This document shows, piece by piece, positions 3,583 to 55,313 of a DNA stretch of 64,000 nt. Each line of letters begins with the position of its first letter. The first letter of the stretch is position 1. Both the position numbers and the translations under genes were made by a program. The notes beneath the pieces are model-generated. The model was given only the letters and a program-made list of their open reading frames with translations. It was not told where the DNA came from and ran no database searches. This DNA is from Xylographa opegraphella (taxonomy: Eukaryota), in assembly GCA_022813865.1 (NCBI GenBank), contig JALDZX010000055.1, positions 1 to 64,000 of the forward strand. Direction: 5' to 3'.

Positions 3583-3879
3583 ATGTGCGACTTCGAGCTC
3601 ATCGTCTACCACTGTGGGCACGAGGGTCACCGCCGTTTTGCGTATTGCCATCACGCGCGCAACCAGCCCGGCCATATTTGCTCGGGCGTCAAGGCTTTGA
3701 AGCGGCTGTGGCACGCGGAGGAAGACTGCGACAGCTGTGTGCAGCAGCAGGAAGAGCAGAATCAGCAAGAGCAGTATCAACAACAACTGCAGCAGCAGCA
3801 GCAACAACAACAACAACAAGGTCAAGAATCAGGACAAGAACAACAACAACAAGAGGACGAAGAGATGGCGCACCCATAG
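3583..3879 (+). CDS. Small Cys/His-rich protein with poly-Gln tail
   Basis: ATG-initiated 98-aa ORF with MCxxxxxxxxCGH...YCHxAR...HxC...CxxC pattern, typical of small fungal putative Zn-binding proteins; C3-biased codons. Confidence 0.7.
   Translation: MCDFELIVYHCGHEGHRRFAYCHHARNQPGHICSGVKALKRLWHAEEDCDSCVQQQEEQNQQEQYQQQLQQQQQQQQQQGQESGQEQQQQEDEEMAHP
3740..3852 (+). repeat. CAG/CAA trinucleotide repeat (poly-Q coding)
   Basis: Runs such as cagcagcagcagcaacaacaacaacaacaa. Confidence 0.85.
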
Positions 3880-16496: not shown

Positions 16497-18060
16497 TTAA
16501 TCGTCCTCCTCATCATCCACCACCCGCCTCCTCTTCGTTCTTCCCCCAGCAGCATCATCCTTGTCACCCTTCGGATCTCTCTTCTTCGACTTAGGCTCCG
16601 CCTCATCGTCGTCAGCCATCTCCTCCTCCTCTTCGCTATCATCAGGCACAAGCTCTGGTTCCTCGTCACTGCCCACCAGGAACCCATCGTCTTCATCGTA
16701 TTCGTCTTCGCGTGTACGACCCCTGTTGCGGAAGTCGTCCTCATCGTCGCTGTACTCGCTATTTCTGCGCCGAGGCTTCCTCGCTGGCTTGGCACGCGGC
16801 CGTGCCGTGGTAGCACCATCCTCGTCTTCGAGGCCTCCGACCGTCAGACCCGCACCGGAACCTCCATAGCGGAGACTGGACCGGCCAAGGACACGGTTCG
16901 CTCGGTCGCGCTCCTTCTCTTCTTGGTTCTGGCGGCGCCGTTGGGCACGTAGCTTTTCGCGCTCTGCTTGCTCGGCTCGTTTCTTGGCCAGTTCTGGGTC
17001 TTCTGAGATGTTAATAACTCCAAGTCCACCATCTGGAGCGTTCTTGTTGCCTTTTACGGCTGCAGCCATTGACTCTTGAAGTCGTATGAGGGCATCGTCA
17101 TTCTGCTCAGAGTTTGTTTGAACAGTAAGAGAGTGAGTGATGTGATTCGTGAATTGCGCAATGGATGTTGCTTGGTGAACGGAGGCAAGATAAGTATGTG
17201 AATCCATGCGAGCATCGTAAGAAGTCCCCTTGACCGGCGCAAGGGGTTTCGACGGTAATTCGTACTGTTCCATCGGATTCGACGCGATTTGTAGTGTAAA
17301 TGAGCCATCGGACCATTCTATGATGCGAGAATTGGATTGCAAAACATTTGGATCTTTAGGAGATCGTCGCCAACGAATTGTAGTTCTTGCGGTTTGAGCT
17401 GCGGAGAAGGTAGAGGATGGAGGACCTTGAGAGTGATGATCGGTTCGAGGAGGCTGGAAGGTGTTGAAGGAGAAAGCCTTGGGATCAAGACCTACAAAGT
17501 GCGGTAACTTGAGGAGATAGGTCTATGTCCAAACTATTAGTTATGGATGGGAGATGAGAGGACGTCGATAATACAAACCTCGCCATCAGTGCTGCGGGGA
17601 TGACCGTGTCTCCCAATTGAGAAATCGGCCACTTGAACAGACTTCTGTGTTTCCATCTCTTCTTCCCCAGAGCCTCCCCCATCTTCTTCCATTCGATCAT
17701 TACGATCCTCGTCGTCCCCCGAGTCAAGTTCCTCGTCGTCAAGCTTACGTTTCGTGCCCTGTGGAGACCTAACAGAATTAAAAACTTGGAAAAGCCATTG
17801 ATAGCGAAGAATACTGACTGTACATCGCCTTCATCCTCGGAGCCAGAGCCGAATAGTCCTCCCCTATCGTCCTCGTCTTCCAGACCTCCTGCTGTAGCTC
17901 TCGCTGTACTGCTCATGATGGCTGTGTGATCTGGCAAATCATAGCTATCACCATCGGCAAAGTCTTTGGTTTCGGTACTATCCATAATATCGTCTGCAGT
18001 AGGATTGATATTGCGAGCGTCTTCTTCAACCTTGAGCTCGTCGACTGGGAACTCCGCCAT
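16497..18060 (-). CDS. LEO1: Paf1 complex subunit Leo1, 3 exons
   Basis: GGLFGSGSEDE, KRKLDDEELDSGDDEDR, IRWRRSP...LQSNSRIIEWSDGSFTLQIAS, DPELAKKRAEQAEREK, acidic tail; introns near 17.82-17.77 kb and 17.58-17.52 kb. Confidence 0.9.
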
Positions 18061-39273: not shown

Positions 39274-41401
39274 TAGGTAATCTCTGAGGCTGCTGGGCAA
39301 GATCTGATCTCACGTAACGAATACTTGAATGAGCTTATTGTGATGAAGCATAGCGTAGCAAGAGTGAAAGGTTATCAAAGATAATTAGGATATTACACTT
39401 GTAGTGATGATGTGGCACTGACTGCATCGAATACACATCGACCCCAGTATCATTTCATTTTCAGCTTGACTTGACCACTGAGGGATTCTGCAATTTGGCT
39501 AGCTTAAGTTTTACCATGTTTCAAGCTCATGTAAACAGGTTGCATATATGCGCAGCTTGGCACCTCGCTCAGACTCAAGGTAAGCATCGTTCAGCGCAAA
39601 TAAAGGAGCAGAACAGAGAACTTCAAGCCAAACATGTGGTTGATCAATCTAAAGGAAATTGAAAGAGCTTCAATAGCATAGTTGGGATTTGGGATAACGA
39701 CCGATCTGTAGACTTTGGGAATGCCGGCGAAAGTCGAGAGGTGCTCCGCCACTGCGCATGCGGAATTGGGGTATATATAAGCGAAGTGGATACATGGTGT
39801 ACGGGCATATTGGCGCACCGGACTACTCTCGAATATTCCACGCTCACAAGTGCAAGCAACAGAGCTTGGCTGTGGTGGAAGTTCCCTGGAGCTGTAGTTG
39901 TTACTGTCATGATGTTGCCGCCAGGTCATCACGGCCCTTTCTAGCCAATGTCCCCATTAAAAGTCACCCAGCCGCCTTTATTTTGCTTAGGTATGCTTAT
40001 TAAAGGCTTTTTGGATTTTTCTTGGACTCCGATCTCCAGCACTGCGCCATATAGCTTCCAGGTAACAGCGGTTCTTTTATATCAAAGCGTGCTGTTTGAA
40101 GTGCATATGATGTCGATTCGTGCTGGCGATCATCACTGAAAAGCTCCTCACTGCAGCAGCATCAGTCTTGGTGTTGCCATTTTTCATTTGAACTCCTTCA
40201 TGGGGAATTGCCCATGGGCATCATCAATGACCCACTTGGCACTCCGGAGTTAATATACCCATGACTATATCATAGTTGACTGATAGAGAAGATCCTGAGT
40301 AAGTCGAGAATGTTCGCATATTGATTGAATATCCATACTTATCAAAATCTGGAGTACGGAGTAGCATGGTGGTAAGTAGGTCAGGTACCACCTACCTTAA
40401 GGTACCTAGTCTACCTAAGTTACGCTCCGCACACCCGATGCCGAATGAGGAAGTTGAAACTGCGACGGACCGAATTCTCCGTTGTCCGGTAAGCTTGGCA
40501 GCACTAAAGTTACTAATGCTTCGTAACTGCCAAGCCACTTTTGCGGAGAACGCAGAAAAGACGTCCAATCCCCACTCACGGAATTCGGTCGTTGCAGCTT
40601 GACGTGGCTTTCTGGCCAGTGGGAGCCAATTGAATCGGCCATGTCGGTCCCATCGTACTCGTAGCGTGGGTCACTGATTCGGCGCCAAACCTGTAATCTC
40701 ACTAATTCATGCACCCTCCCCAGCAGCCTTCAGGCGATCCCTTTCCAGGTGACTGCTCGAACTCTCGTGAACCCCGGACGCATATGTGGCAATTTACGAT
40801 CATACATGTGAGCTGAACGTGAATAGGCCACATCTGTTGCCAGCTTGGTACAGAGTAAAGCCCAGATCGCCACAGTCTACCAAGCCAGATACCTGAATTT
40901 ACGTCAACGGAGGACCCCCTGCAGGCGAATCGAGCTTAAAGTTTCTCCGAGAGTGGCCGTTACCCGTCCGAGCCCGTCCAAGATTCATCTATTCACTTCC
41001 CAAATATAGGTACCTACCTGTCGTCAGTGTGCCATCGCACTAGTCTCTCTGACTGTGTACTACTATCTCCAGTTGAGGCTTAAGCATTGTCTCATCCGAG
41101 AACCGTCTCGAATCGCTCGGTGCTCACGTAGCTAGTGAACACCCCTTACTTGGACTTCCGCCAGCCTATCAGCAACTACTTGAGTGTAACAGGAGGAAAC
41201 TTTCTACTCTCTCGAGAGTTGAGTCAGCAGCAAGTCCAGTCCTGCGATTCACCTTCGTGCTCGCTCAACAACACAATCAAATCATAACACTGAGACTACA
41301 ATCCACGGGCTAAAATCACCCTTCACCAAAGCACAAGGCCACACCCGAGTGAGTGATCTCTAGTTCATTACATCTTCACACTGCTGAATATACTTCTAGT
41401 A

Positions 41402-46725: not shown

Positions 46726-47796
46726 CTAATTCGAGCAGGACATTGGAAATTTGGCAACACGATCCGCTGTATACGCACCCCAGTGCTTTTCATCCGCAGA
46801 CTCTCCGTTCGTACCAATACTTGCAGGCTTGGAAGGTTCGTCGAATGCCTCGAAGTAGAAGACGTCAAAGCCCCAAGCGAGAGCGGCGCAGACACCTTGT
46901 TGATAAAAAGTCGCGGCGTTCTGGGTGCCGGCCATGGCGGACTCGTAATTGGTTCCCCCTGCGAGAAGCGTTTAGCCATGAGATAAATCTGTGCTAAGAA
47001 GGTGGGACAAACCGTCGGTTGGCCATCCAGTCTCTCCATTCCAGATCTCGATATCCATTGAGCCTGCTACGGTCTGGACATGGCCAAATGCTTGATTGAG
47101 ATCGTCGAGGTAGCTGTGACTGGAGTTTGCGAGGGTTTGTCCTTGCCAGTATGAAAAGGCGTTGGCCAAGCTATTCACGACTTAGCAGCTGCTGATAGTC
47201 ATACGATTAGGGCATTGGTACATAAGCTTGAGGCCTCCCTGAATGAGAGGATCGGCGGTACCGTCCTGAAATTTGTTCCAGCTATCTGCCGTTCCGATCT
47301 TCATATTCGGGAAAGTACTCTGCATGTCCTTGATTTTTGAAAGCAGTGCCTGGGCAGTGAGACTGCCCCGATACAACGCTTCAGACCCAACGGTAATAGC
47401 ATAAACGGCACCTGCATTACTAGAATCTGACAACGCACTCTGCAGGGCAGTTTTGTCGAGATTGTACGCATCATCGGTATCAGGCCTGTGGTAAAACATC
47501 AGCATTGATTTGGTAGATGACGCCCACTATCCGTACCAAACTCCAAGTACAACCTTGAACCCCTTCGCCACAGCCGCTGGCAAGATTTGTTGAGCAGTGT
47601 TGCAACCACTTGAAGTGTATGTTCTAACGAGGGTGCTGACGCTCTTCAAAGCATCAAAATCTGCTTCGTAGTCCGCTTGCATCTTACAGTTACCATTTGA
47701 CATAGTGTTTCCCAGTGCAAAGCCCAAAGTACCTGCGGCAGACACTGCCACAGGGACCGTTGCAAGGGCGGCCAAGGTTAGAGACAAGGGACGCAT
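46726..47796 (-). CDS. BGL2: GH17 cell wall beta-1,3-glucanosyltransferase (Bgl2/Bgt1-like), 4 exons
   Basis: Signal peptide, LGFALG, KVVLGVWP, ITVGSEALYRG, GTADSWNK, ANAFSYWQG, ETGWPTDGG, FYFEAFDEP, EKHWG. Confidence 0.9.
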
Positions 47797-48468
47797 ATCT
47801 GTTGACTTTCAACAGTCTTAAGGAGTGTGTATCGTCTGGGTTACAATGTTCGTATTGCGCAAAGAACTAAATGAGTGTGAGAAGCAGGGCAGAAAGCACT
47901 GACTACTATGGGGAATGCAGCTGGTCAACCGCGTGTTCGAACTTGGAGAGATGTTGTTTCGAGCTCTCAAACAGAAAGGAGGCGCTCGCCAACGGCATAA
48001 TATTTGGCCGCTATAGGCCCCCTGTTTCCGGCCCGTTCGGCGAACCGCGTAAACACGTGCGCTTGCCCTTGTTCCTCATCTCGGGCCCCTGTCCGCTACT
48101 CCACGTCAACATTTTTGACCTCCCGGTCCCGTCGACGATGAGTACTATGCCGCCAACCTTGATTGGATTCAGTGGAAGAGTCCTCGAACTGCTGGAGTGT
48201 TGAATGCTAGCTCTTGAGCGGCGTTGAGCCTTATTGTCACTCCCTCATATTTTTCAACTGTGCAATTTATCCCTATTTAGTAACAATGCCAGCACATCGT
48301 CTTGGAAATCTCGAGTGATTTACACTCCGTTCCGCAGCAGGATTTTAGAAATCGTTGGCCTTTGGATACTCGAGGGACGTTTATCCGTCCGCACACTAGC
48401 GGCACGGTGGAGGGTGAGACTCAAATTGTGTGTGCCTCGAAGGCCTATACTCATCTGATTGTACCTAG

Positions 48469-51400
48469 GTCTCAATTGGCACACGTCGTCACCGACTCCG
48501 CAGTCGACTTCCAGCTTGATACGACCCCAGAACGCGAGAGCTTGTACCGGATTCGATAGTGCAGCTCGGCGCACGATCAGTCGCTCGAGGTCTTCGAGTG
48601 TGTGGACTGCGCCTTCTCCTGGTCAGGCAATCCGCTCAAAGTCTCCGAGTGATCCACCACTACCAGCTTATTCGCACTCGAACTCATATCTGAAAAGCCT
48701 GCAGTCGCCAGCTCAACACCAGCGATCTGATAGCAGCGCTTACTACACAGCTGAATGGGGGTCGCCATACGATCTTCCATCCAGCGTAAGGGCACAAATA
48801 GGAGGACACCGGTATCAACAGACAAACAGCACAACCGCTAACAACGGATCACCACCACAACGACCCAGGCGAGAAGCCACTTACAGTCCCTCATCCGCTA
48901 CTACCCAAACGCCGTACAGCGAGCTTCGTAGAGACTCCCGAGTGGCCGTTCCCTCAGGCCGACTATCGCTTCCTGCACGGAATCGGCCACCCATCATCAA
49001 GCCTCGGTGGGGTTTCACTCAGGAGTGGTTGAACAACAATCTGCGACAGACTAATAACGAAGAGAGAGGCAACTGGCTGAGTGACGAGTCAGGTGTCAGT
49101 GACACAGAGGCTGCGCCAAGAATAGGGCCTCTCAAGGGAATTGGAATTCCAGATTCTTGGCTAGAATTCGGAGAGGAGAGAATCCCTAGCAGCTCTGAAA
49201 CAGTATATACCCAGGCTCGAAGGTCTTTACCACAGACAAGCAAGTGTCAAGAGGGTCACTTATCTATATCCCAGAGCACAGCTCATCACAAAGCTATCCC
49301 TAGCGACGTTACCCTGAAGCAGAGAGACTTTGACGACATCTTCCGAAGCAGTCGCGTAGACAACAATAGAATTGCAGACATGGCAACCTCCCTTCAAGGG
49401 CTTCCGAGTGAGCTTCCGGCTCTCAACCTTTCGTCTTCTGTATCTGTTGAAAAGCCACTACCTCCTCAACCTATCAATCGGGCGACCCCGGAACCGCCAG
49501 CCTTGATTACAGCTGTCTCATCGACTGAGCTTCCATTTTATGTCAAGAGGCCTTCACTTTCTTCCCTAGCTTCATTCCAAAGGCCAAGGAAACGTGTGGT
49601 GTGGCGCGGTAAGACCTGTGTCATTGCCTTACCTCTGGATGATGGAACGGATCATCGTAGGCAATATTTAACCCCACGAGATTTTGATGCCATTATTGCT
49701 CATTGGCATGAGCGAGGGTTTAATACTCGCGGTTTCGATCTAGCAGAGATCAAGCAAGGAGATATTCTAGACCACGGCCAAAGTCGGGATGTCTACCCAG
49801 ATCCTCAGGAATGGGAGCGCGAAACACGGGAGAGAAATTTTAAGGTCAGAATACCAGACAGGAAAGCCTGGGACGATTATGTGAACGATTTGAAAGAGCA
49901 AAAGTTGAGAGCTTTGGGCGTAAGCTTCGGAGACGAGGACGTACAGACAAGAAAGTCTCCTGGACTACCAATGAGCAGGCAAGATTCGGCACAAAACCCC
50001 ATGCTACCTCCTCCACTTCCTGAAGGGCCACCCTCTGTGACCAACGCACGGATAAATATTGCACCAACATTCTCACCCTCTCTAACAAGCTCGACAGGTG
50101 CGTTTGACCGCGGACCACCTGTCCCAGCAACATCTCAGCAATACGCAGCTACTTCCGCAAGGCCGCATATGCCAAAGCAGTCTGTAGTTATCAATGGTCA
50201 ACTGTACAATTCGCCACCTTTTCCTAGGCAGCAACCTACGCCACCAATGTTCAATACATGGCCCCAGCAACAATATCTAGGGTCAGTTCCCGCATCTCGT
50301 GGAGTATCGCCGCTTGTGAGCGGACGCAGACAGAGTCTCCAAGGGCCTCAGTCGCCCGTATCTCCAATGCCTGATATGCCATTTGAAAGATACCATCTCC
50401 CGCAAAATCCTGGTGGTCTTCAAACCCATCCGCCAAATGCTTCCGTAATTGAGCAGTCGCGTTTCCAGCACCCGCTGCCACACCAGTACCAAGATCTATA
50501 TCAACCAGTTCCACTGAGGGAAAGCCTTGACTTGAACAACGATCTGCAGCCTATAAAGTATGTCAGCCAGCCAGAGATTGCAAGTCCACTTCCCCAAGGA
50601 CATCGTCATAACCTCAGCGAGTCTTTGCAGAAAGAGATTGATAATGCCGAGTATCATCTTGAAGAATCAATCCGACGTCAACTGGACGAAGACGACGAAA
50701 TATCTCTGCAATCCACAGCCAATGACCATGCTTCAATGTATGCTACTCGAGCGCCAAAGATGAGCTCTGTCAACGGCATCAAGTTGGGGGACCATATAGC
50801 AACGCCTATGTCAGACCTCGACACAAATCCTAGCAATAGTGGTTCTCCGACTATTCGAAGTCCTGAGGCACAAAGAAGAAATTCTATATCAATGCGATCT
50901 ACTCACGTACCCAGATCATCAACATCCAAATTGAACGTAAATGCCCGAGAATTTGTGTTCGATCCGCAGAAGAGCTTTGCTCCCAAAATGTTCTCCTTCT
51001 TGGGCAATCTGAAGCCTTCAGCCGCAGCAGATACAACGGCAAACGATGGGCTGCAGGTTCAACCAAAGCAGAATGAAGTCGCTTCTCACGGCCGTCTGAA
51101 TGTTGCGGCGCCGGCCTTCATGCCTAGTAATTCTACTGTCCGCCTGCCGTCCCAAGAGTTTAGCTTTTCATCCTCGTTACCATCATTGAAACCAGATGCA
51201 CCAGTCTTCAAACCTAATCGTGGACAAAGTCTAGGCCCTGGAAGTGGCCAAGCTGACATGGAAAGTCAACTTCCACGAATATTTGGGAATCTAGATTTCT
51301 CCGAAGCGGTCAAATCGGTTAAGAAGTCTAAGGCTATCCCGATTGTGCGGCCGAATATCACTCATCTTGATGATGACCGGAACAGTGATTTTCAAGAGGA

Positions 51401-54400
51401 TGATGAAGGACGTATCACTCAGGGAGATGGTCGACAAAAACGCATGCGTCGTGCAGATGACGACGGGGATTCAGTTCCCGTCTTTGCAACCCCCAGTCAA
51501 GAAGCTGTTTTGGAGCTTGGTCCAGTCGTCGACACCAACCTGCAAGCCAAGGATGATGCAAATTTAAATGATCTACTTTCCAGGAATGATACATTAGCAT
51601 CCCCAGCCGAAAAAGCGACAGACCAGCTCAAGGATTTGCTAAATAAACTTGACGCTTCTGGAGCTTCAAGCCCGGTAGGAGACCACAGTAGTGTCGGCGG
51701 AGTTGAAAAAGAAAGCGAATCGTTCGAGTTTGAAGACAAATTTGAAGCAGCCTCCTTTAATCTTGCTCGTCCAAGATCTTCCACGCCAGTTATGACAGGT
51801 TTCAATCAAGATGAATTCTCAGACTCAATGTCGCAACGGAATGACACTGCAGCTAACAATGCTGAAAGCTCCACCACAGAAGACGGTCCAAATGGCGAAG
51901 AAATATCACTCACTGCAACGATACAACCATCAGAGTGGAATGCGGATACTGCAATCTATCAGTCTGATGTAGACAGCAACCTTTCTATTTCCGACTCGAA
52001 GGCTGTAAATGATGGCTTAACAGCGTCTCGATATGTCCCAAGGGCCGATTCTCTTGAAATAGTTTCACCCGCGCATGAAAGTTACCTATCTCATAAGGAG
52101 GACTTCTCGTCATCTGCAAGGTCTTCATCAGTTGAGCGGTATATCAGGGATGATGGTATTGATCCTGAACCTTCGTTTCAAGAAATCGATGCAGTGATGA
52201 AACATCTCAATGAGGATTCCGAGGCTGGCGTCGAGCGCCTGAAAACCACAGAAATGGATGGAAGTGAAGCACAAACCCACTCTAGGAGTGCCACTCGTAG
52301 CTCTTTGCCGATTCGTCACGGGACGCCTGTCACAGATCATCATTTGTATGCTCTCGACCAACACAAAGTCCCGTCTTCGAGTCCCAATAGACTCCAACAG
52401 CCATTTCAATACTTGCCTCAGCGAAGTTACGGGTCTTCTGAAAGTGCTGCAGCTGAACTTGTCGCAAGAAGCGCTCGTTATAGTCCTTCATACAAACCAG
52501 CAAAGCTAGAGCAGACATCCTTAGACTCCCCTATTCATCGACTTAATGATGCTACACAATTACCAGTCAGTGATTGGGATGACGTGGTGTCTTCTACCGA
52601 GGAAGCCAAATTTCAGTCACGAAGCAGTTTCTTCGATCACAGAATCAATAATCTAGTTGGAGCAGCTGTGCGAGAACAATTGAAGTCTCTCGAAAACAAT
52701 ATATCGGAGATAAGCAACTCCGTAGCTCAATTGGTTGACAGATCGTCAGCAGGAAGACTTCCGAGGAGTGCGTCTGCACAGATAAAGAACAGTGACGCTG
52801 ATGATGAAGATGACGATGGCAACTTCACCCAAACTCGGGCAATGTCTCCGTTGAAAGAGAGAAAATACGAAAGACTCAAAGCATCTCTTCTGGAAAGTGT
52901 AGCAAATCAAGGAAAAGCTAACTTTGAGGAAGGTTTTGCGGAAATCATGGGGACATTAACGGACCTTAAAACCGCCCTTAAGCAGCAAAAGTCGGATTCG
53001 ATTGCTGAGATCGAGTCTACCGCACAGGAAGTCATTGATAAGCACCTCCCTGGCGAATCGGCACCGATCGTGTCAAGTCGTCAGTCTGCCACTTCAGAGA
53101 AATATCAGCTTCACATATCCGGCCTTGAGAGTATGCTCAAAATTGCAGAAAGTCGTGCAGATGAGGAACTGAAAGCTCGAATATTGGCTGAAAATGCTTT
53201 GGAAGACAGTCAGCAGCTTTTACGCCTCGCTCAAGCTGATGCAGCAGCACAGCGTGAGTCTGCCGAGGAAACTGAGCGTAGTCTTCGAGATTTCCACGAA
53301 GAGCGATTACAAGCTGTGCAACGTTCTACCCTACTCGAAATTACGCAAGTAGATCTTCAGAGAACAGTTGCTGGACTCAATGAGAAAAATGCCACTTTGG
53401 AAGACACTCTTGAGGAGTACCGGCTATCTAGCGCTCAATGGAGAGAAGAAATAGACGAGGCGAAGACCAATAACAGCAATTTAGACCGTACGATACACGC
53501 ACTAAAAGCAGAGCTGGAAGACGGTATCCGAGGGCGTCACATGCTGCGGACCAAGCTTAACAGTCTTCAAGAAGAAATGACGAATGCTGCCCGCAACATT
53601 GCTCGAGACCAGTCGTCATGGAGGCACAAGGAAGAAGAACACAAGGCTAGACACGAAATGCAGAATGCCAGACTTGAGGCAGAAGCTCGCACACGCGAGA
53701 GGCTGGAGCTTGAAATTGAGCGACTTGAGGCGCAAGAGAAGGAAGCAATGAAATCTCGTTTTCTCGTCGATCAAGTCCAGGGGGAGAATAGCAGACTAAT
53801 CACGCTTGTCAACGAATTGAGGCAGGAACACGAACAGGCGCGGAAGGACTCGGCTCGATATCAGCGCGAACTACACGATGCAAAGGAAACTGGTCGACTA
53901 GACATCCAACGAGTACAAAATGCTATGGAGGCAGACATGGAAAAGGCAAATCAGGAAGTACAAATAGTGAGAAAAGATTGCGAAAGTCTGATCGCTAGAT
54001 TGCAAACACAGCTTGAGGATGCTCAAGCAGACGCTAAAGCTCTGAAATCTAGATATGAGCTCATGTTAGAGGAGGCGTCCGAGTCGAAAGACGAAGCTCT
54101 TCGGAATGCTGCAGAGGCCAGAGACGCTGCTTTGCAAGAACACTACCGGTTTCATGAACATTCCCTGGATGAGCTGAAGAGACTCCATGAACAAGTGCTG
54201 GCAGCCACGTTAGAACGAAAGGATCACGCATTGGCAAACGCATCGGAGGACAAGCGCCTTACGGAGCTCTATTTGGGAAAACGTATCAACTTAGCCGACG
54301 AGAAAATCCTACATTATCAGGATCGTATTACACATCTAGAGGAGAAGCTTGAGATTGCGAGGTCAGCCGCTCAAGCTGCGGTACAGGCTGCGCAATCAGC

Positions 54401-55313
54401 GAGAGGCTCACCAAGCCCCGCTGTAAATCGCGATCAAGTATCAGTCTCTAGGGGCTCTGATGTTAATGGTAAAATATCCCCCCAAGCTCTCAGAGAGTCG
54501 ATCCTCGTGCTACAGGAGCAGCTTCACCAGCGGGAAAGCCAAATCGAGAATCTTGAGCAAGAATTGGCAAATCTTGACAAGGATGCGCCTACGAAGATTA
54601 AAGATCGCGACATTGAGATATCTTGGCTTCGGGAACTATTGGGTGTTCGTATCGATGACCTCCAAGACATCATCGGCACATTGTCACAGCCTTCTTTCGA
54701 CCGCGATGCTGTCAAAGACGCTGCAATCAGACTGAAGGCTAACCTTCAAATGGAACAGCAAGAGAAGGAACGTGCGATCGCTGGAGGGCAGAGTTTCCCC
54801 TCGCTTGCAAGCATTTCAAATCTAGCAGCCTCTCCGCGAACCCTGCCTCTTGCTGCTGCTGCTGCTTGGGGCAATTGGCGCAAAGGACAGTCCACCTTCG
54901 CCAGTCTCTCAGAAATGGCCAATGGCAGTGCGAGTCAAACGCCATCGAGGTCATCTCCGCAAAGCTTTCTCTCTGGATTGTTGACACCGCCAAGCACGAA
55001 TATAAGGCAAACTCCACAACCAACAGCTCCAGCTCCAGCTCCAGCTTCTCGGTCAAAGTCCGCGGAGTACCGTCCCTTACGTGGATACTCTACACCACGG
55101 CAGAGCACTTCGCGAGCTGGTGGAGGGAGATCGATCCACGATCACCCACCACCGGAGACACCACAGCTTCTCCGGAAAACTTCATATGATCAGGATGCAC
55201 AAAGTGGACACTATAGCTTGGAAAGATATGCGGCGGAGGACGATGAGAGCACAGCCGATGGCAATGTAAGGGGGGAGGACGAAGGACCATTTGGACCGAA
55301 CATCGAAACTTGA
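48469..55313 (+). CDS. Very large low-complexity/coiled-coil protein (often auto-annotated 'myosin class II heavy chain-like'); start uncertain
   Basis: Stop-free frame 48459-55313; first in-frame ATG only at 49380. KRVVWRGKTCVIALP, PAM2-like SKLNVNAREFVF / RLNVAAPAFMP, long C-terminal coiled coil, ISWLRELLGVRIDDL. No myosin motor motifs seen. Confidence 0.85.

What the first reader, a model, noticed from the sequence alone, without database searches (positions are those of the whole stretch)
48286..49382. ~300-codon Met-free, AUG-depleted N-terminal extension: candidate non-AUG initiation of the giant coiled-coil gene
Seen: the frame is open from 48459, yet the first in-frame ATG is at 49380. 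Across ~910 nt (48469-49379) I find only one ATG in any frame (48755, out of frame, T at -3, weak context), where roughly 14 would be expected by chance. The extension has complex Trp/Tyr motifs (SSAYYTAEWGSPYD, WGFTQEWL, GNWLSDES, VTLKQRDF). A plausible intron 48414-48468 (GTGAGA..CTGAT..TAG) joins it in frame to an upstream exon that also lacks an in-frame ATG (TTG 48302, stop at 48281). That exon carries a 10-codon AUG uORF (48286, MPAHRLGNLE*). Known: near-cognate-initiated N-terminal extensions with leaky scanning exist in filamentous fungi (e.g. Neurospora cpc-1). Inference: long and short isoforms arise from non-AUG versus AUG initiation. The protein has PAM2-like motifs (LNVNAREFVF, LNVAAPAFMP), hinting at a translation-linked scaffold under translational control.
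Basis: partly seen in the sequence, partly recalled or inferred. Interest (0 to 1): 0.72.

Follow-up and report, generated by a model that had tools for sequence, protein, structure and literature searches.

The report
Non-AUG start of fungal PxdA gene
The giant coiled-coil gene is the lichen fungus's copy of PxdA, the endosome hitchhiking tether, and sequence comparison suggests it makes a long form from a conserved non-AUG start codon and a short form from a downstream AUG reached across an AUG-free stretch.

Summary
The frame is open 48459-55313, the first in-frame ATG is 49380, and 48469-49379 holds one ATG (48755, out of frame, T at -3).

The gene is the Xylographa opegraphella ortholog of Aspergillus nidulans PxdA (AN1156). 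The roughly 300-codon extension is coding: it is conserved across Pezizomycotina, with dN/dS 0.08-0.27 in relatives.

Two codons before it, ten lineages with DNA carry ACG or GTG, never ATG, always with G at -3 and G at +4. Here that is ACG 48404 and GTG 48407. Exon 1 has no in-frame ATG and a stop at 48281.

From start to second Met, 13 lineages hold 22 ATGs against 74.7 expected. ATG is 0.33 of expectation; 13 control trinucleotides are 0.85-1.22. The second Met has a purine at -3 in 13 of 14 lineages. Where a first AUG exists, -3 is a pyrimidine (4 of 4).

Best reading (0.55): weak near-cognate initiation gives a long isoform, and leaky scanning to AUG 49380 gives a short one.

No RNA or protein data exist for this species. 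An A. nidulans nonsense allele inside the extension gives the mutant phenotype, which complicates the short-isoform claim.

This is a new member of a known kind.

The parts
47536..47796 (-). First exon of the divergently transcribed GH17-like gene (ATG at 47796-47794). It bounds the shared 487-bp intergenic and promoter region.
   Evidence: Translation. Weak Pfam PF00332 match, 18.1 bits, below the cut-off, on 87 aa. It matches the N-terminus of the fused Lambiella model P0011.
48286..48318 (+). 10-codon upstream ORF (MPAHRLGNLE*). It is out of frame with exon 1, has A at -3, and ends 86 nt before ACG 48404.
   Evidence: The same five residues (MPAHR) begin the X. pallens and X. trunciseda gene models.
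48284..48413 (+). Exon 1 reading frame: 43 codons open after stop TAA 48281, with no in-frame ATG. This is the leader plus the start of the long isoform.
   Evidence: Ungapped 16 of 43 identity, counted by eye, with the Lambiella model segment that ends AVEG|LNW.
48404..48409 (+). Candidate near-cognate start codons ACG (ggcACGg) and GTG (acgGTGg), two and three codons before the exon junction.
   Evidence: The homologous codon is ACG or GTG with G at -3 and G at +4 in 10 lineages.
48414..48468 (+). Intron 1: 55 nt, phase 1, GTGAGA...CTGAT...TAG, with no ATG inside.
   Evidence: Same position and phase in L014, L034, the L001 group, L035, L017, L025, L027 and L029.
48469..49379 (+). Exon 2 part that encodes the Met-free N-terminal extension. 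This is the 'AUG desert', with one ATG in any frame.
   Evidence: Protein conservation.
48755..48841 (+). The only residual ATG. It is out of frame, has T at -3, and opens a 28-codon ORF that ends well before 49380.
49380..49382 (+). Second, strong-context AUG (gacATGg): the proposed start of the short isoform.
   Evidence: The equivalent Met has a purine at -3 in 13 of 14 lineages. Nine short-form loci start here.
49380..55313 (+). Coding sequence common to both isoforms, up to and including the stop codon (PxdA ortholog body and coiled-coil C-terminal region).
50931..50960 (+). PAM2 motif LNVNAREFVF.
   Evidence: Pfam PF07145, 26.3 bits against a cut-off of 20. Position.
51096..51125 (+). 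Second PAM2-like motif LNVAAPAFMP, not called by Pfam.
   Evidence: Position. One search reported only one stretch.

Best explanation
The gene is the PxdA ortholog. I propose that its mRNA is decoded from two starts.

Step 1. Scanning 43S complexes first meet a near-cognate codon in exon 1, ACG 48404 or the adjacent GTG 48407. Both sit in a strong context, just before a conserved phase-1 intron.

Step 2. A minority of complexes initiate there. After removal of the 55-nt intron they translate a conserved extension of about 306 residues fused to the rest of the protein. This is the long isoform.

Step 3. Most complexes leak past and scan about 920 nt that selection has kept almost free of AUG in all three frames.

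Step 4. They initiate at the strong-context AUG 49380 to make the short isoform.

The short uORF at 48286 may further lower or tune the flow to the near-cognate codon.

Shown by computation:
- the extension is coding and under purifying selection in relatives;
- the intron and the near-cognate codon are conserved;
- the AUG depletion is specific to ATG and found across the family;
- the first start is weak and the second is strong.

Inferred, not shown:
- that the near-cognate codon is really used;
- that both isoforms are made, and their ratio;
- the transcription start site;
- any role of the uORF or the hairpin.
For: Identity of the gene.
- 100% match to X. opegraphella MMC26_006290.
- Homolog of A. 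nidulans AN1156 (E 4.5e-21, 92% of the N-terminal query covered).
- AN1156 is PxdA.

The extension is coding.
- Motifs are conserved from Lecanoromycetes to Eurotiomycetes and Sordariomycetes.
- dN/dS is 0.27, 0.08, 0.16 and 0.10 in the four pairs with unsaturated dS.
- All 13 start-to-second-Met models translate without a stop.

No AUG start.
- Exon 1 opens after the stop at 48281 and has no in-frame ATG.
- The same holds in L014 (27 codons), L034 (16), the L001 group (13, 10 loci) and L035 (42).
- Public gene models of relatives begin in incompatible ways. Examples are MFVLRKELNEC, MPAHR, MC, a fusion to the neighbouring GH17 gene, and GTG or TTG read as M.

Conserved near-cognate codon.
- ACG or GTG with G at -3 and G at +4 in 9 of 9 lineages, plus L035.
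- It always sits two codons before the phase-1 junction or its intron-less equivalent.
- 23 of 39 fetched loci have this layout. Four have an AUG instead, 9 are short forms, and 3 cannot be judged.

Leaky-scanning signature.
- 22 ATGs against 74.7 expected in 10,413 nt, and 2 in-frame Met in 3,471 codons.
- ATG observed over expected is 0.33. Thirteen control trinucleotides are 0.85-1.22.
- 21 of 24 residual ATGs have a pyrimidine at -3, and 22 of 24 open short ORFs that end before the second Met.
- The first AUG, where present, has T, T, T or C at -3.
- The second Met has a purine at -3 in 13 of 14 lineages.

The short form can stand alone.
- Nine loci and several database proteins begin at the second-Met equivalent.
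- In A. nidulans the whole N-terminal region is dispensable for peroxisome movement.

Precedent. Fungal 'DualAUG/DualNCC' genes swap repeatedly between weak AUG and near-cognate starts (passages of PMC7049704).
Against: - No RNA run holds this locus, so the transcription start site, the intron and expression are unverified in this species.
- No DNA of close Xylographa relatives could be obtained. Conservation of ACG/GTG rests on relatives 28-47% identical in protein.
- These lineages are related, so the counts are not independent events.
- The A. nidulans allele S201stop lies inside the extension and gives the peroxisome phenotype, although the N-terminal region is dispensable. If a short isoform were made in quantity from the same mRNA, a milder phenotype would be expected, unless nonsense-mediated decay removes the mRNA.
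- The JCB paper describes one band of about 250 kDa, fitted to the larger predicted ORF.
- The A. nidulans annotated protein begins with Met (MRQ...). A first AUG may therefore exist there.
- An alternative first exon cannot be excluded from sequence alone. The public model uses ATG 47846 with a donor at 47877.
- uATG 48286 has A at -3. If it lies in the transcript it should capture many ribosomes.
Confidence: 0.55

Rival explanations
1. Ordinary AUG start on an exon not recognised here. An upstream or alternative first exon supplies an in-frame ATG, and the long protein is the only product. One example is the public model: ATG 47846, donor GTGAGA 47877, and a 592-nt intron to the acceptor at 48468.
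For: - The public annotation P0002 uses exactly this.
- The donor at 47877 is one of only three strong donors in 47800-48420.
- ATG 47846 has A at -3.
- The A. nidulans protein is annotated with an initial Met.
Against: - The ATG lies 50 nt from the start codon of the divergent GH17 gene.
- The intron would be 416-592 nt against 50-64 nt for the conserved intron in five lineages.
- The model skips exon 1, whose end and intron are conserved in many lineages.
- Three other Xylographa models do not use such an exon.
- It leaves the ATG-specific depletion and the weak-then-strong start pattern unexplained.
Confidence: 0.2
2. The start is deliberately weak, but the second Met is not meaningfully used. 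AUGs were purged downstream only to avoid wasteful out-of-frame initiation or decay of a lowly translated mRNA. Only the long isoform matters.
For: - The S201stop allele behaves like a null.
- One band of about 250 kDa is described.
- All 26 phosphopeptide rows seen for PxdA could come from either isoform.
Against: - Any ribosome that leaks past the weak start must reach the second Met, because almost nothing lies between.
- That Met keeps its position and a purine at -3 in 13 of 14 lineages.
- Natural short forms begin there.
Confidence: 0.12
3. ATG 48286 is the real start. A 13-nt coding exon (MPAH, with part of R) is spliced from 48299 (GTCTTG) to 48469, as in the X. pallens and X. trunciseda models.
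For: - Two relatives' models begin MPAHR|LNWH.
- The ATG has A at -3.
- It uses the same acceptor as intron 1.
Against: - The donor GTCTTG is poor. It has C at +3 and T at +5, so it falls below the score of 5 that only 47825, 47877 and 48414 reached in the donor listing.
- The model skips the conserved ...VEG| exon end and its strong GTGAGA donor.
- A strong-context AUG start would not need an AUG-free extension.
- Conservation of MPAHR is equally explained by the overlapping exon-1 frame.
Confidence: 0.07
4. The extension is not translated. It is a long, AUG-poor 5' leader of a protein that starts at 49380.
For: 5' leaders are often depleted of AUG, and natural short forms exist.
Against: - A stop-free frame of about 300 codons is kept in 13 lineages.
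- dN/dS is 0.08-0.27 with dS above 1.
- Conserved peptide motifs span fungal classes.
- All indels after the start are multiples of three.
Confidence: 0.03

Closest known systems
Leaky-scanning dual-start genes of fungi ('DualAUG' and 'DualNCC'; Wallace et al. 2020, NAR, PMC7049704; passages read)
   Same: A weak first start (poor-context AUG or near-cognate codon) is followed by an in-frame strong-context AUG. Evolution swaps between weak AUG and near-cognate codon. Two N-terminal isoforms result.
   Different: [quoted passage not shown] Here the two starts lie about 306 codons (920 nt) apart. The extension carries conserved Trp/Tyr motifs and does not look like a presequence. The start sits 7-10 nt before a conserved intron.
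Neurospora crassa cpc-1 N-terminal extension started at near-cognate codons (Ivanov et al. 2017, mBio, PMC5487733; abstract read)
   Same: A long conserved in-frame extension of more than 700 nt without AUG, conserved near-cognate codons in Pezizomycotina, and uORFs in the leader.
   Different: cpc-1 is a transcription factor under GCN4-type uORF control. Use of its near-cognate codons was shown in vitro and in vivo. Here nothing is shown experimentally, and one codon position is conserved where cpc-1 has several.
Aspergillus nidulans PxdA (AN1156; Salogiannis et al. 2016, PMC4748578, and 2021, PMC8101442; passages read)
   Same: Ortholog. It has the same overall layout: a long N-terminal uncharacterised region, a C-terminal coiled-coil region, and the same N-terminal motifs and second Met.
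   Different: The A. nidulans protein is annotated with an AUG (MRQ...). No isoforms or unusual initiation appear in the passages I read. The window's gene has no in-frame AUG before codon 308.
Rice tungro bacilliform virus leaky scanning, and mammalian PTEN-L, MYC and FGF2 CUG-initiated extensions (recalled from memory, no call)
   Same: A non-AUG first start followed by a long stretch poor in AUG that lets ribosomes reach downstream starts.
   Different: These are viral polycistronic or mammalian cases and are unrelated in sequence. They are named only as a mechanistic analogy.

Membership tests
PxdA family (orthologs of A. nidulans AN1156; Pfam PF26916 in precomputed tables) | Full-length sequence homology to AN1156 | tested here: met
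   P0068 (AN1156.2) was hit with E 4.5e-21 on the N-terminal 480 residues at 92% coverage. The full-length alignment A1 gives 35% identity to P0068, the 17th of 18 rows.
PxdA family (orthologs of A. nidulans AN1156; Pfam PF26916 in precomputed tables) | Match to the Pfam family model | tested here: inconclusive
   The precomputed table lists PF26916 for the identical protein P0002. The local Pfam copy gave no family for P0001, or for the C-terminal 637 aa. The model may be missing from that copy.
PxdA family (orthologs of A. nidulans AN1156; Pfam PF26916 in precomputed tables) | Endosome association and tethering of peroxisomes and mRNPs | not testable with these tools
   Known only for A. nidulans.
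Non-AUG-initiated N-terminal extension | Frame open upstream of the first AUG, with an in-frame stop further upstream and no in-frame AUG between | tested here: met
   Stop at 48281, then exon 1, intron 1 and exon 2 open to 49380 without ATG.
Non-AUG-initiated N-terminal extension | Extension under protein-level purifying selection | tested here: met
   dN/dS is 0.08-0.27 in four pairs of relatives, with conserved motifs. It was not measurable for the window itself, because no close relative's DNA was available.
Non-AUG-initiated N-terminal extension | Conserved near-cognate codon in a favourable context | tested here: met
   ACG or GTG with G at -3 and G at +4 in 10 lineages.
Non-AUG-initiated N-terminal extension | Experimental initiation at that codon (profiling, proteomics, mutagenesis) | not testable with these tools
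   No RNA holder was listed and no ribosome or N-terminal peptide data were available.
Leaky-scanning dual-isoform gene | Weak first start, few or no intervening AUGs, strong in-frame second AUG | tested here: met
Leaky-scanning dual-isoform gene | Two protein isoforms observed | not testable with these tools
   Only one band of about 250 kDa is described for A. nidulans in the passage read. The S201stop phenotype argues for caution.
PAM2 (PABP MLLE-binding) motif | Match to Pfam PF07145 above the gathering score | tested here: met
   26.3 bits against 20 for residues covering LNVNAREFVF. Binding to PABP was not tested.

The most novel reading that the evidence does not exclude
The conserved leader is a dedicated initiation device. 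It consists of a short uORF, then a stable hairpin (GCAAGC-N4-GCTTGC and variants) ending exactly 13 nt upstream of the ACG/GTG codon.

Once the hairpin has passed through the 40S exit channel it refolds behind the scanning complex. This holds the complex over the near-cognate codon. It would be an upstream mirror image of the known downstream-hairpin effect. Together with the uORF it would set a regulated ratio of long to short PxdA. The two isoforms might then couple endosomes to different cargo, such as peroxisomes and PABP-bound mRNPs.
Probability: 0.15. Interest if true: 0.85.

Novelty: new member of a known kind. Interest (0 to 1): 0.62.

Why it matters
PxdA is the best-studied tether for organelle and mRNP 'hitchhiking' on endosomes. 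A recent preprint shows that mRNP hitchhiking also needs it. If PxdA is made as two isoforms from one mRNA, constructs, truncations and alleles in that field need re-reading. The conserved 300-residue extension also becomes a candidate cargo-specific or regulatory module.

For translation research, this would be an unusually long and deeply conserved near-cognate-initiated extension. It is about 306 codons, with a 920-nt AUG desert, in at least two fungal classes. The start codon sits at a fixed place next to an intron and, in seven lineages, a fixed 13 nt behind a hairpin. That arrangement is directly testable in Aspergillus or Neurospora.

For genome annotation, it explains why models of this gene begin differently in almost every fungus, including fusions to the neighbouring GH17 gene. 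It also gives a rule for correcting them.

Tried and rejected
- RNA evidence. The look-up of sequencing runs listed no RNA holder: three DNA runs of one study, of which only X1 holds the stretch.
- Read laying reproduced the assembly from X1, the probable source. It also showed two tiny low-depth pieces of a relative in X2, which were of no use.
- No whole genome is held for the window.
- The metagenome scan returned no close Xylographa relative. Conservation of the exact codons within the genus could therefore not be checked.
- Frameshifting. I first considered that conserved out-of-frame ATGs in L027 and L036 pointed to frameshifting or uORF overlap. This is rejected. Those ATGs lie in the 3' end of the conserved intron, between branch point and acceptor. 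The apparent in-frame start of L029 is the same intronic ATG.
- Downstream hairpin. One about 16 nt after the GTG is seen only in the L001 group and L035 (z -2.0 and -1.1). WIN (z -0.4), L014 and L034 lack it. It is not a family feature.
- Covariation in the upstream hairpin. None of 9 pairs shows a compensatory change in the MAFFT alignment, which also misplaces the L014 and L034 arms. RNA structure against DNA palindrome is undecided. WIN has only a 5-bp stem at the matching distance, and its fold is not significant (z -1.4).
- A. nidulans phosphoproteome supplement (file cut when stored). It has 26 rows and 6 unique PxdA phosphopeptides starting at residues 702, 824/826, 1154, 1293 and 2144. 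None falls in residues 1-314. With 14% of the length at stake this is uninformative. The paper's other phosphosites were not visible.
- Earlier findings of this scan: nothing on record.
- Literature. No paper holds both 'PxdA' and 'leaky scanning'. Three hold 'PxdA' and 'start codon', and none is about the PxdA start by title or abstract. Seventeen hold 'PxdA' and 'isoform'. I saw ten in the listing and read passages of one, and none was about PxdA isoforms.
- My first regex count of Met positions missed most proteins. It was replaced by locus-based counts.
Full report
**1. Observation**

The frame is open from 48459 to the stop at 55311-55313, which is 2284 codons. The ATGs in 48000-49400 are 48138, 48147, 48204, 48286, 48755 and 49380.

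Between 48469 and 49379 only 48755 remains. It is out of frame, has T at -3, and opens a 28-codon ORF that ends at 48841.

Expected ATG counts for a stretch of this length depend on the null model:
- 14.7 from the window-wide mean
- 11.5 from base composition
- 8.2 from dinucleotides (all)
- 5.9 from permuting the stretch's own codons (P=0.0115)
- 7.2 from synonymous resampling with the gene's own codon usage (P=0.0005)

Only 0.29% of 911-nt windows in the 64 kb hold one ATG or fewer. Equal-length windows further down the same gene hold 13-24.

**2. What the gene is**

The translated frame is 100% identical to X. opegraphella MMC26_006290 (2291 aa). Ninety-five homologs were scored with E of 0.001 or better, among them A. 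nidulans AN1156.

AN1156 is PxdA, the endosomal protein needed for peroxisomes to hitchhike on early endosomes (PMC4748578, passages). According to a 2026 preprint it is also needed for SsdA-mRNP puncta that carry the poly(A)-binding protein (10.64898/2026.04.14.718127, passages).

**3. The extension is coding**

Its motifs align from Lecanoromycetes to Aspergillus and Cladophialophora. They include SSSVWTAPSP, YYTAxWGSPY, GFTQ[DE]WL, ERxNWLSD and TLKQxDF.

In the four pairs of relatives with usable dS, dN/dS in the extension is 0.27, 0.08, 0.16 and 0.10. This is similar to, or lower than, the next 1500 nt of the same genes. In the alignment of L027, L029 and L036, the gaps placed after the start region are multiples of three.

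**4. The 5' end**

That exon is open for 43 codons after stop TAA 48281 and has no in-frame ATG.

The intron is conserved in position and phase. Each exon 1 below ends in a split codon one base before GT:
- WIN: ACG GTG GAG G|gtgaga
- L014: GAG GTG GAA G|gtatgt
- L034: GAA GTG GAA G|gtctgt
- L001 group (10 loci) and L035: GCA GTG GAA G|gtcgta or gtcaac
- L017, L027, L029: GAC ACG GAA G|gtgtgt or gtgag
- L025: GAC GTG GAT T|gtaagt

The Lambiella protein model reads AVEG|LNW at the same place.

Intron lengths are 50-64 nt in five lineages. They are 56, 153, 190 and 214 nt in L025, L029, L017 and L027.

In each lineage with DNA the exon-1 frame has an upstream stop and no ATG.

Public gene models show the difficulty. 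They begin with MFVLRKELNEC (this species), MPAHR (two species), MC, an internal made-up start, a fusion to the upstream GH17 gene, or GTG/TTG read as Met by prokaryote-style callers.

A search of 47798-48413 for ATG plus donor plus acceptor combinations found nothing convincing. The only strong donors are at 47825, 47877 and 48414. The combinations need introns of 416-592 nt without a branch-point match. Their ATGs lie 50-75 nt from the start codon (47796, minus strand) of the divergent GH17 gene.

**5. A conserved near-cognate codon**

The codon two places before the junction is ACG in WIN, L017, L027, L029 and L038. It is GTG in L014, L034, L001, L035 and L025. WIN also has GTG as the next codon.

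G stands at -3 and G at +4 in 9 of 9 lineages, and in L035. This conservation reaches beyond what a 5' splice site needs.

Of the 39 loci fetched:
- 23 have this layout
- 4 have an AUG at nearly the same place (L022, L023, L026, L037)
- 9 are short forms
- 3 cannot be judged (L013, L033, L036)

**6. The leaky-scanning signature**

From the proposed start to the second Met, 13 lineages hold 22 ATGs in 10,413 nt. Codon permutation expects 74.7. There are 2 in-frame Met in 3,471 codons.

In 14 lineages, over slightly different segments, ATG is at 0.33 of expectation. Thirteen control trinucleotides lie at 0.85-1.22. Downstream Met content is 0.85-2.7%.

Of 24 residual ATGs listed, 21 have a pyrimidine at -3, and 22 open short ORFs that end before the second Met. 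Four of them later proved to be intronic.

Where a first AUG exists, -3 is T, T, T or C. The second Met has a purine at -3 in 13 of 14 lineages; here it reads gacATGg.

Nine loci and several database proteins begin at the second-Met equivalent. tblastn found no extension in the up to 4 kb held upstream of them (E of 1e-3 or better).

**7. Mechanism proposed**

Weak initiation at ACG 48404 or GTG 48407 gives the long isoform. Most scanning complexes pass on, cross the AUG-free 920 nt, and start at 49380.

The uORF at 48286 has A at -3 and ends 86 nt before the ACG. It may divert or delay ribosomes.

In L017, L027 and L029 a 7-codon uORF, M(R/V)QHSG(R/Q), starts at -61 in the weak context tccATG.

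In seven lineages a hairpin ends exactly 13 nt before the near-cognate codon. It is GCAAGC-N4-GCTTGC, extended in L014 and L034, and GCAGGC-N4-GCTTGC with a G-U pair in L038. The folds of L014, L034, L027 and L029 have z-scores of -2.1 to -3.3; L038 has -0.2.

WIN has only a 5-bp stem at the matching distance from ACG, and its fold is not significant.

The A. nidulans model begins MRQ, like that uORF. From the protein alone I infer that the uORF AUG may have become in-frame there. This is not verified.

**8. Against, and open**

- No RNA or protein data exist for this species, and the transcription start site is unknown.
- Relatives with DNA are distant (28-47% identity) and phylogenetically related, so the counts are not independent.
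- The hairpin shows no compensatory change in 0 of 9 pairs.
- The S201stop allele of A. nidulans pxdA gives the phenotype, although deleting the whole N-terminal region does not. One band of about 250 kDa is described. This fits a dominant long isoform, or nonsense-mediated decay of the mutant mRNA. It lowers my confidence that the short isoform is abundant.

**9. Comparison and novelty**

The kind is known. Fungal DualAUG/DualNCC genes interchange repeatedly between weak AUG and near-cognate starts (PMC7049704, passages). The cpc-1 extension is another example (PMC5487733, abstract).

What is new:
- the gene family (PxdA);
- the length of the extension and of the AUG desert;
- the fixed near-cognate codon beside a conserved intron;
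- the leader hairpin at constant spacing.

No paper in the library holds both 'PxdA' and 'leaky scanning'. Hits for 'PxdA' with 'start codon' or 'isoform' were not about this, as far as titles, abstracts and one paper's passages show.

**Verdict**

- Observation: confirmed.
- Novelty: new member of a known kind.
- Interest: 0.62.
- Confidence in the full two-start model: 0.55.

Noticed in passing
window 47536-47796 (-), and protein models P0011, P0067, P0073: A GH17-like glucanase gene lies head-to-head with the PxdA gene here, with its ATG at 47796 on the minus strand. In Lambiella insularis and two Aspergillus species the public models fuse GH17 (PF00332) to PxdA in one protein of 2488-2609 aa. 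This is most likely an annotation artefact caused by the missing AUG.
   Followed up: partly
L027:2739-2806, L029:2602-2669, L017 about 3642-3709: Exon 1 is nearly identical between L027 and L029: the last 74 nt before the donor differ at two positions, although dS in their coding extension is 1.2. It holds a conserved 7-codon uORF, M(R/V)QHSG(R/Q)*, at -61 from the near-cognate codon. The A. nidulans PxdA model begins MRQ.
   Followed up: partly
L014:3811-3833, L034:3774-3800, L017:3674-3689, L025:3538-3553, L027:2771-2786, L029:2634-2649, L038:1141-1156: A palindrome or hairpin, GCAAGC-N4-GCTTGC (longer in L014 and L034, G-U variant in L038), ends exactly 13 nt before the ACG/GTG codon in seven lineages. 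No compensatory changes were seen, so RNA hairpin against DNA palindrome is undecided.
   Followed up: partly
L001:3862-3890 and L035, spliced mRNA +19 onward from GTG: In the L001 group and L035 an 8-bp hairpin (TGTCTGCT/AGCAGACA) begins about 16 nt downstream of the GTG. This is the spacing at which downstream structure is known to favour weak start codons (recalled). It is absent in the window and in L014 and L034.
   Followed up: partly
window 50931-50960; A. nidulans PxdA residues 824-836: The PAM2 motif passes Pfam. In the A. nidulans phosphoproteome the peptide just before and into this motif (SKLStSsLNVEAK) is multiply phosphorylated. With the report that PxdA is needed for hitchhiking of PABP-marked mRNPs, this suggests a direct, phospho-regulated PxdA-PABP contact. 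No 'PAM2' was found in the one preprint searched for it.
   Followed up: partly
L007-L009, L011, L012, L019-L021, L028: Nine loci encode PxdA-like proteins that begin at the second-Met equivalent (M..PLDPLDPN..KPLPPPP). No extension is detectable in the up to 4 kb held upstream. I did not determine whether these are paralogs or lineages that lost the extension.
   Followed up: no
window, 911-nt windows starting at 17601-17643 and 40807-40813: These are the only other places in the 64 kb where a 911-nt window holds two ATGs or fewer.
   Followed up: no
L001:3645-3693 and L035:3625-3672: Two short uORFs (MSVL*, and an 8-codon one) are conserved in position between the L001 group and L035, about 150-200 nt upstream of the GTG. 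The block also resembles intron signals (GTCAGT...GCTAAC..TAG in L001), so they may be spliced out.
   Followed up: no
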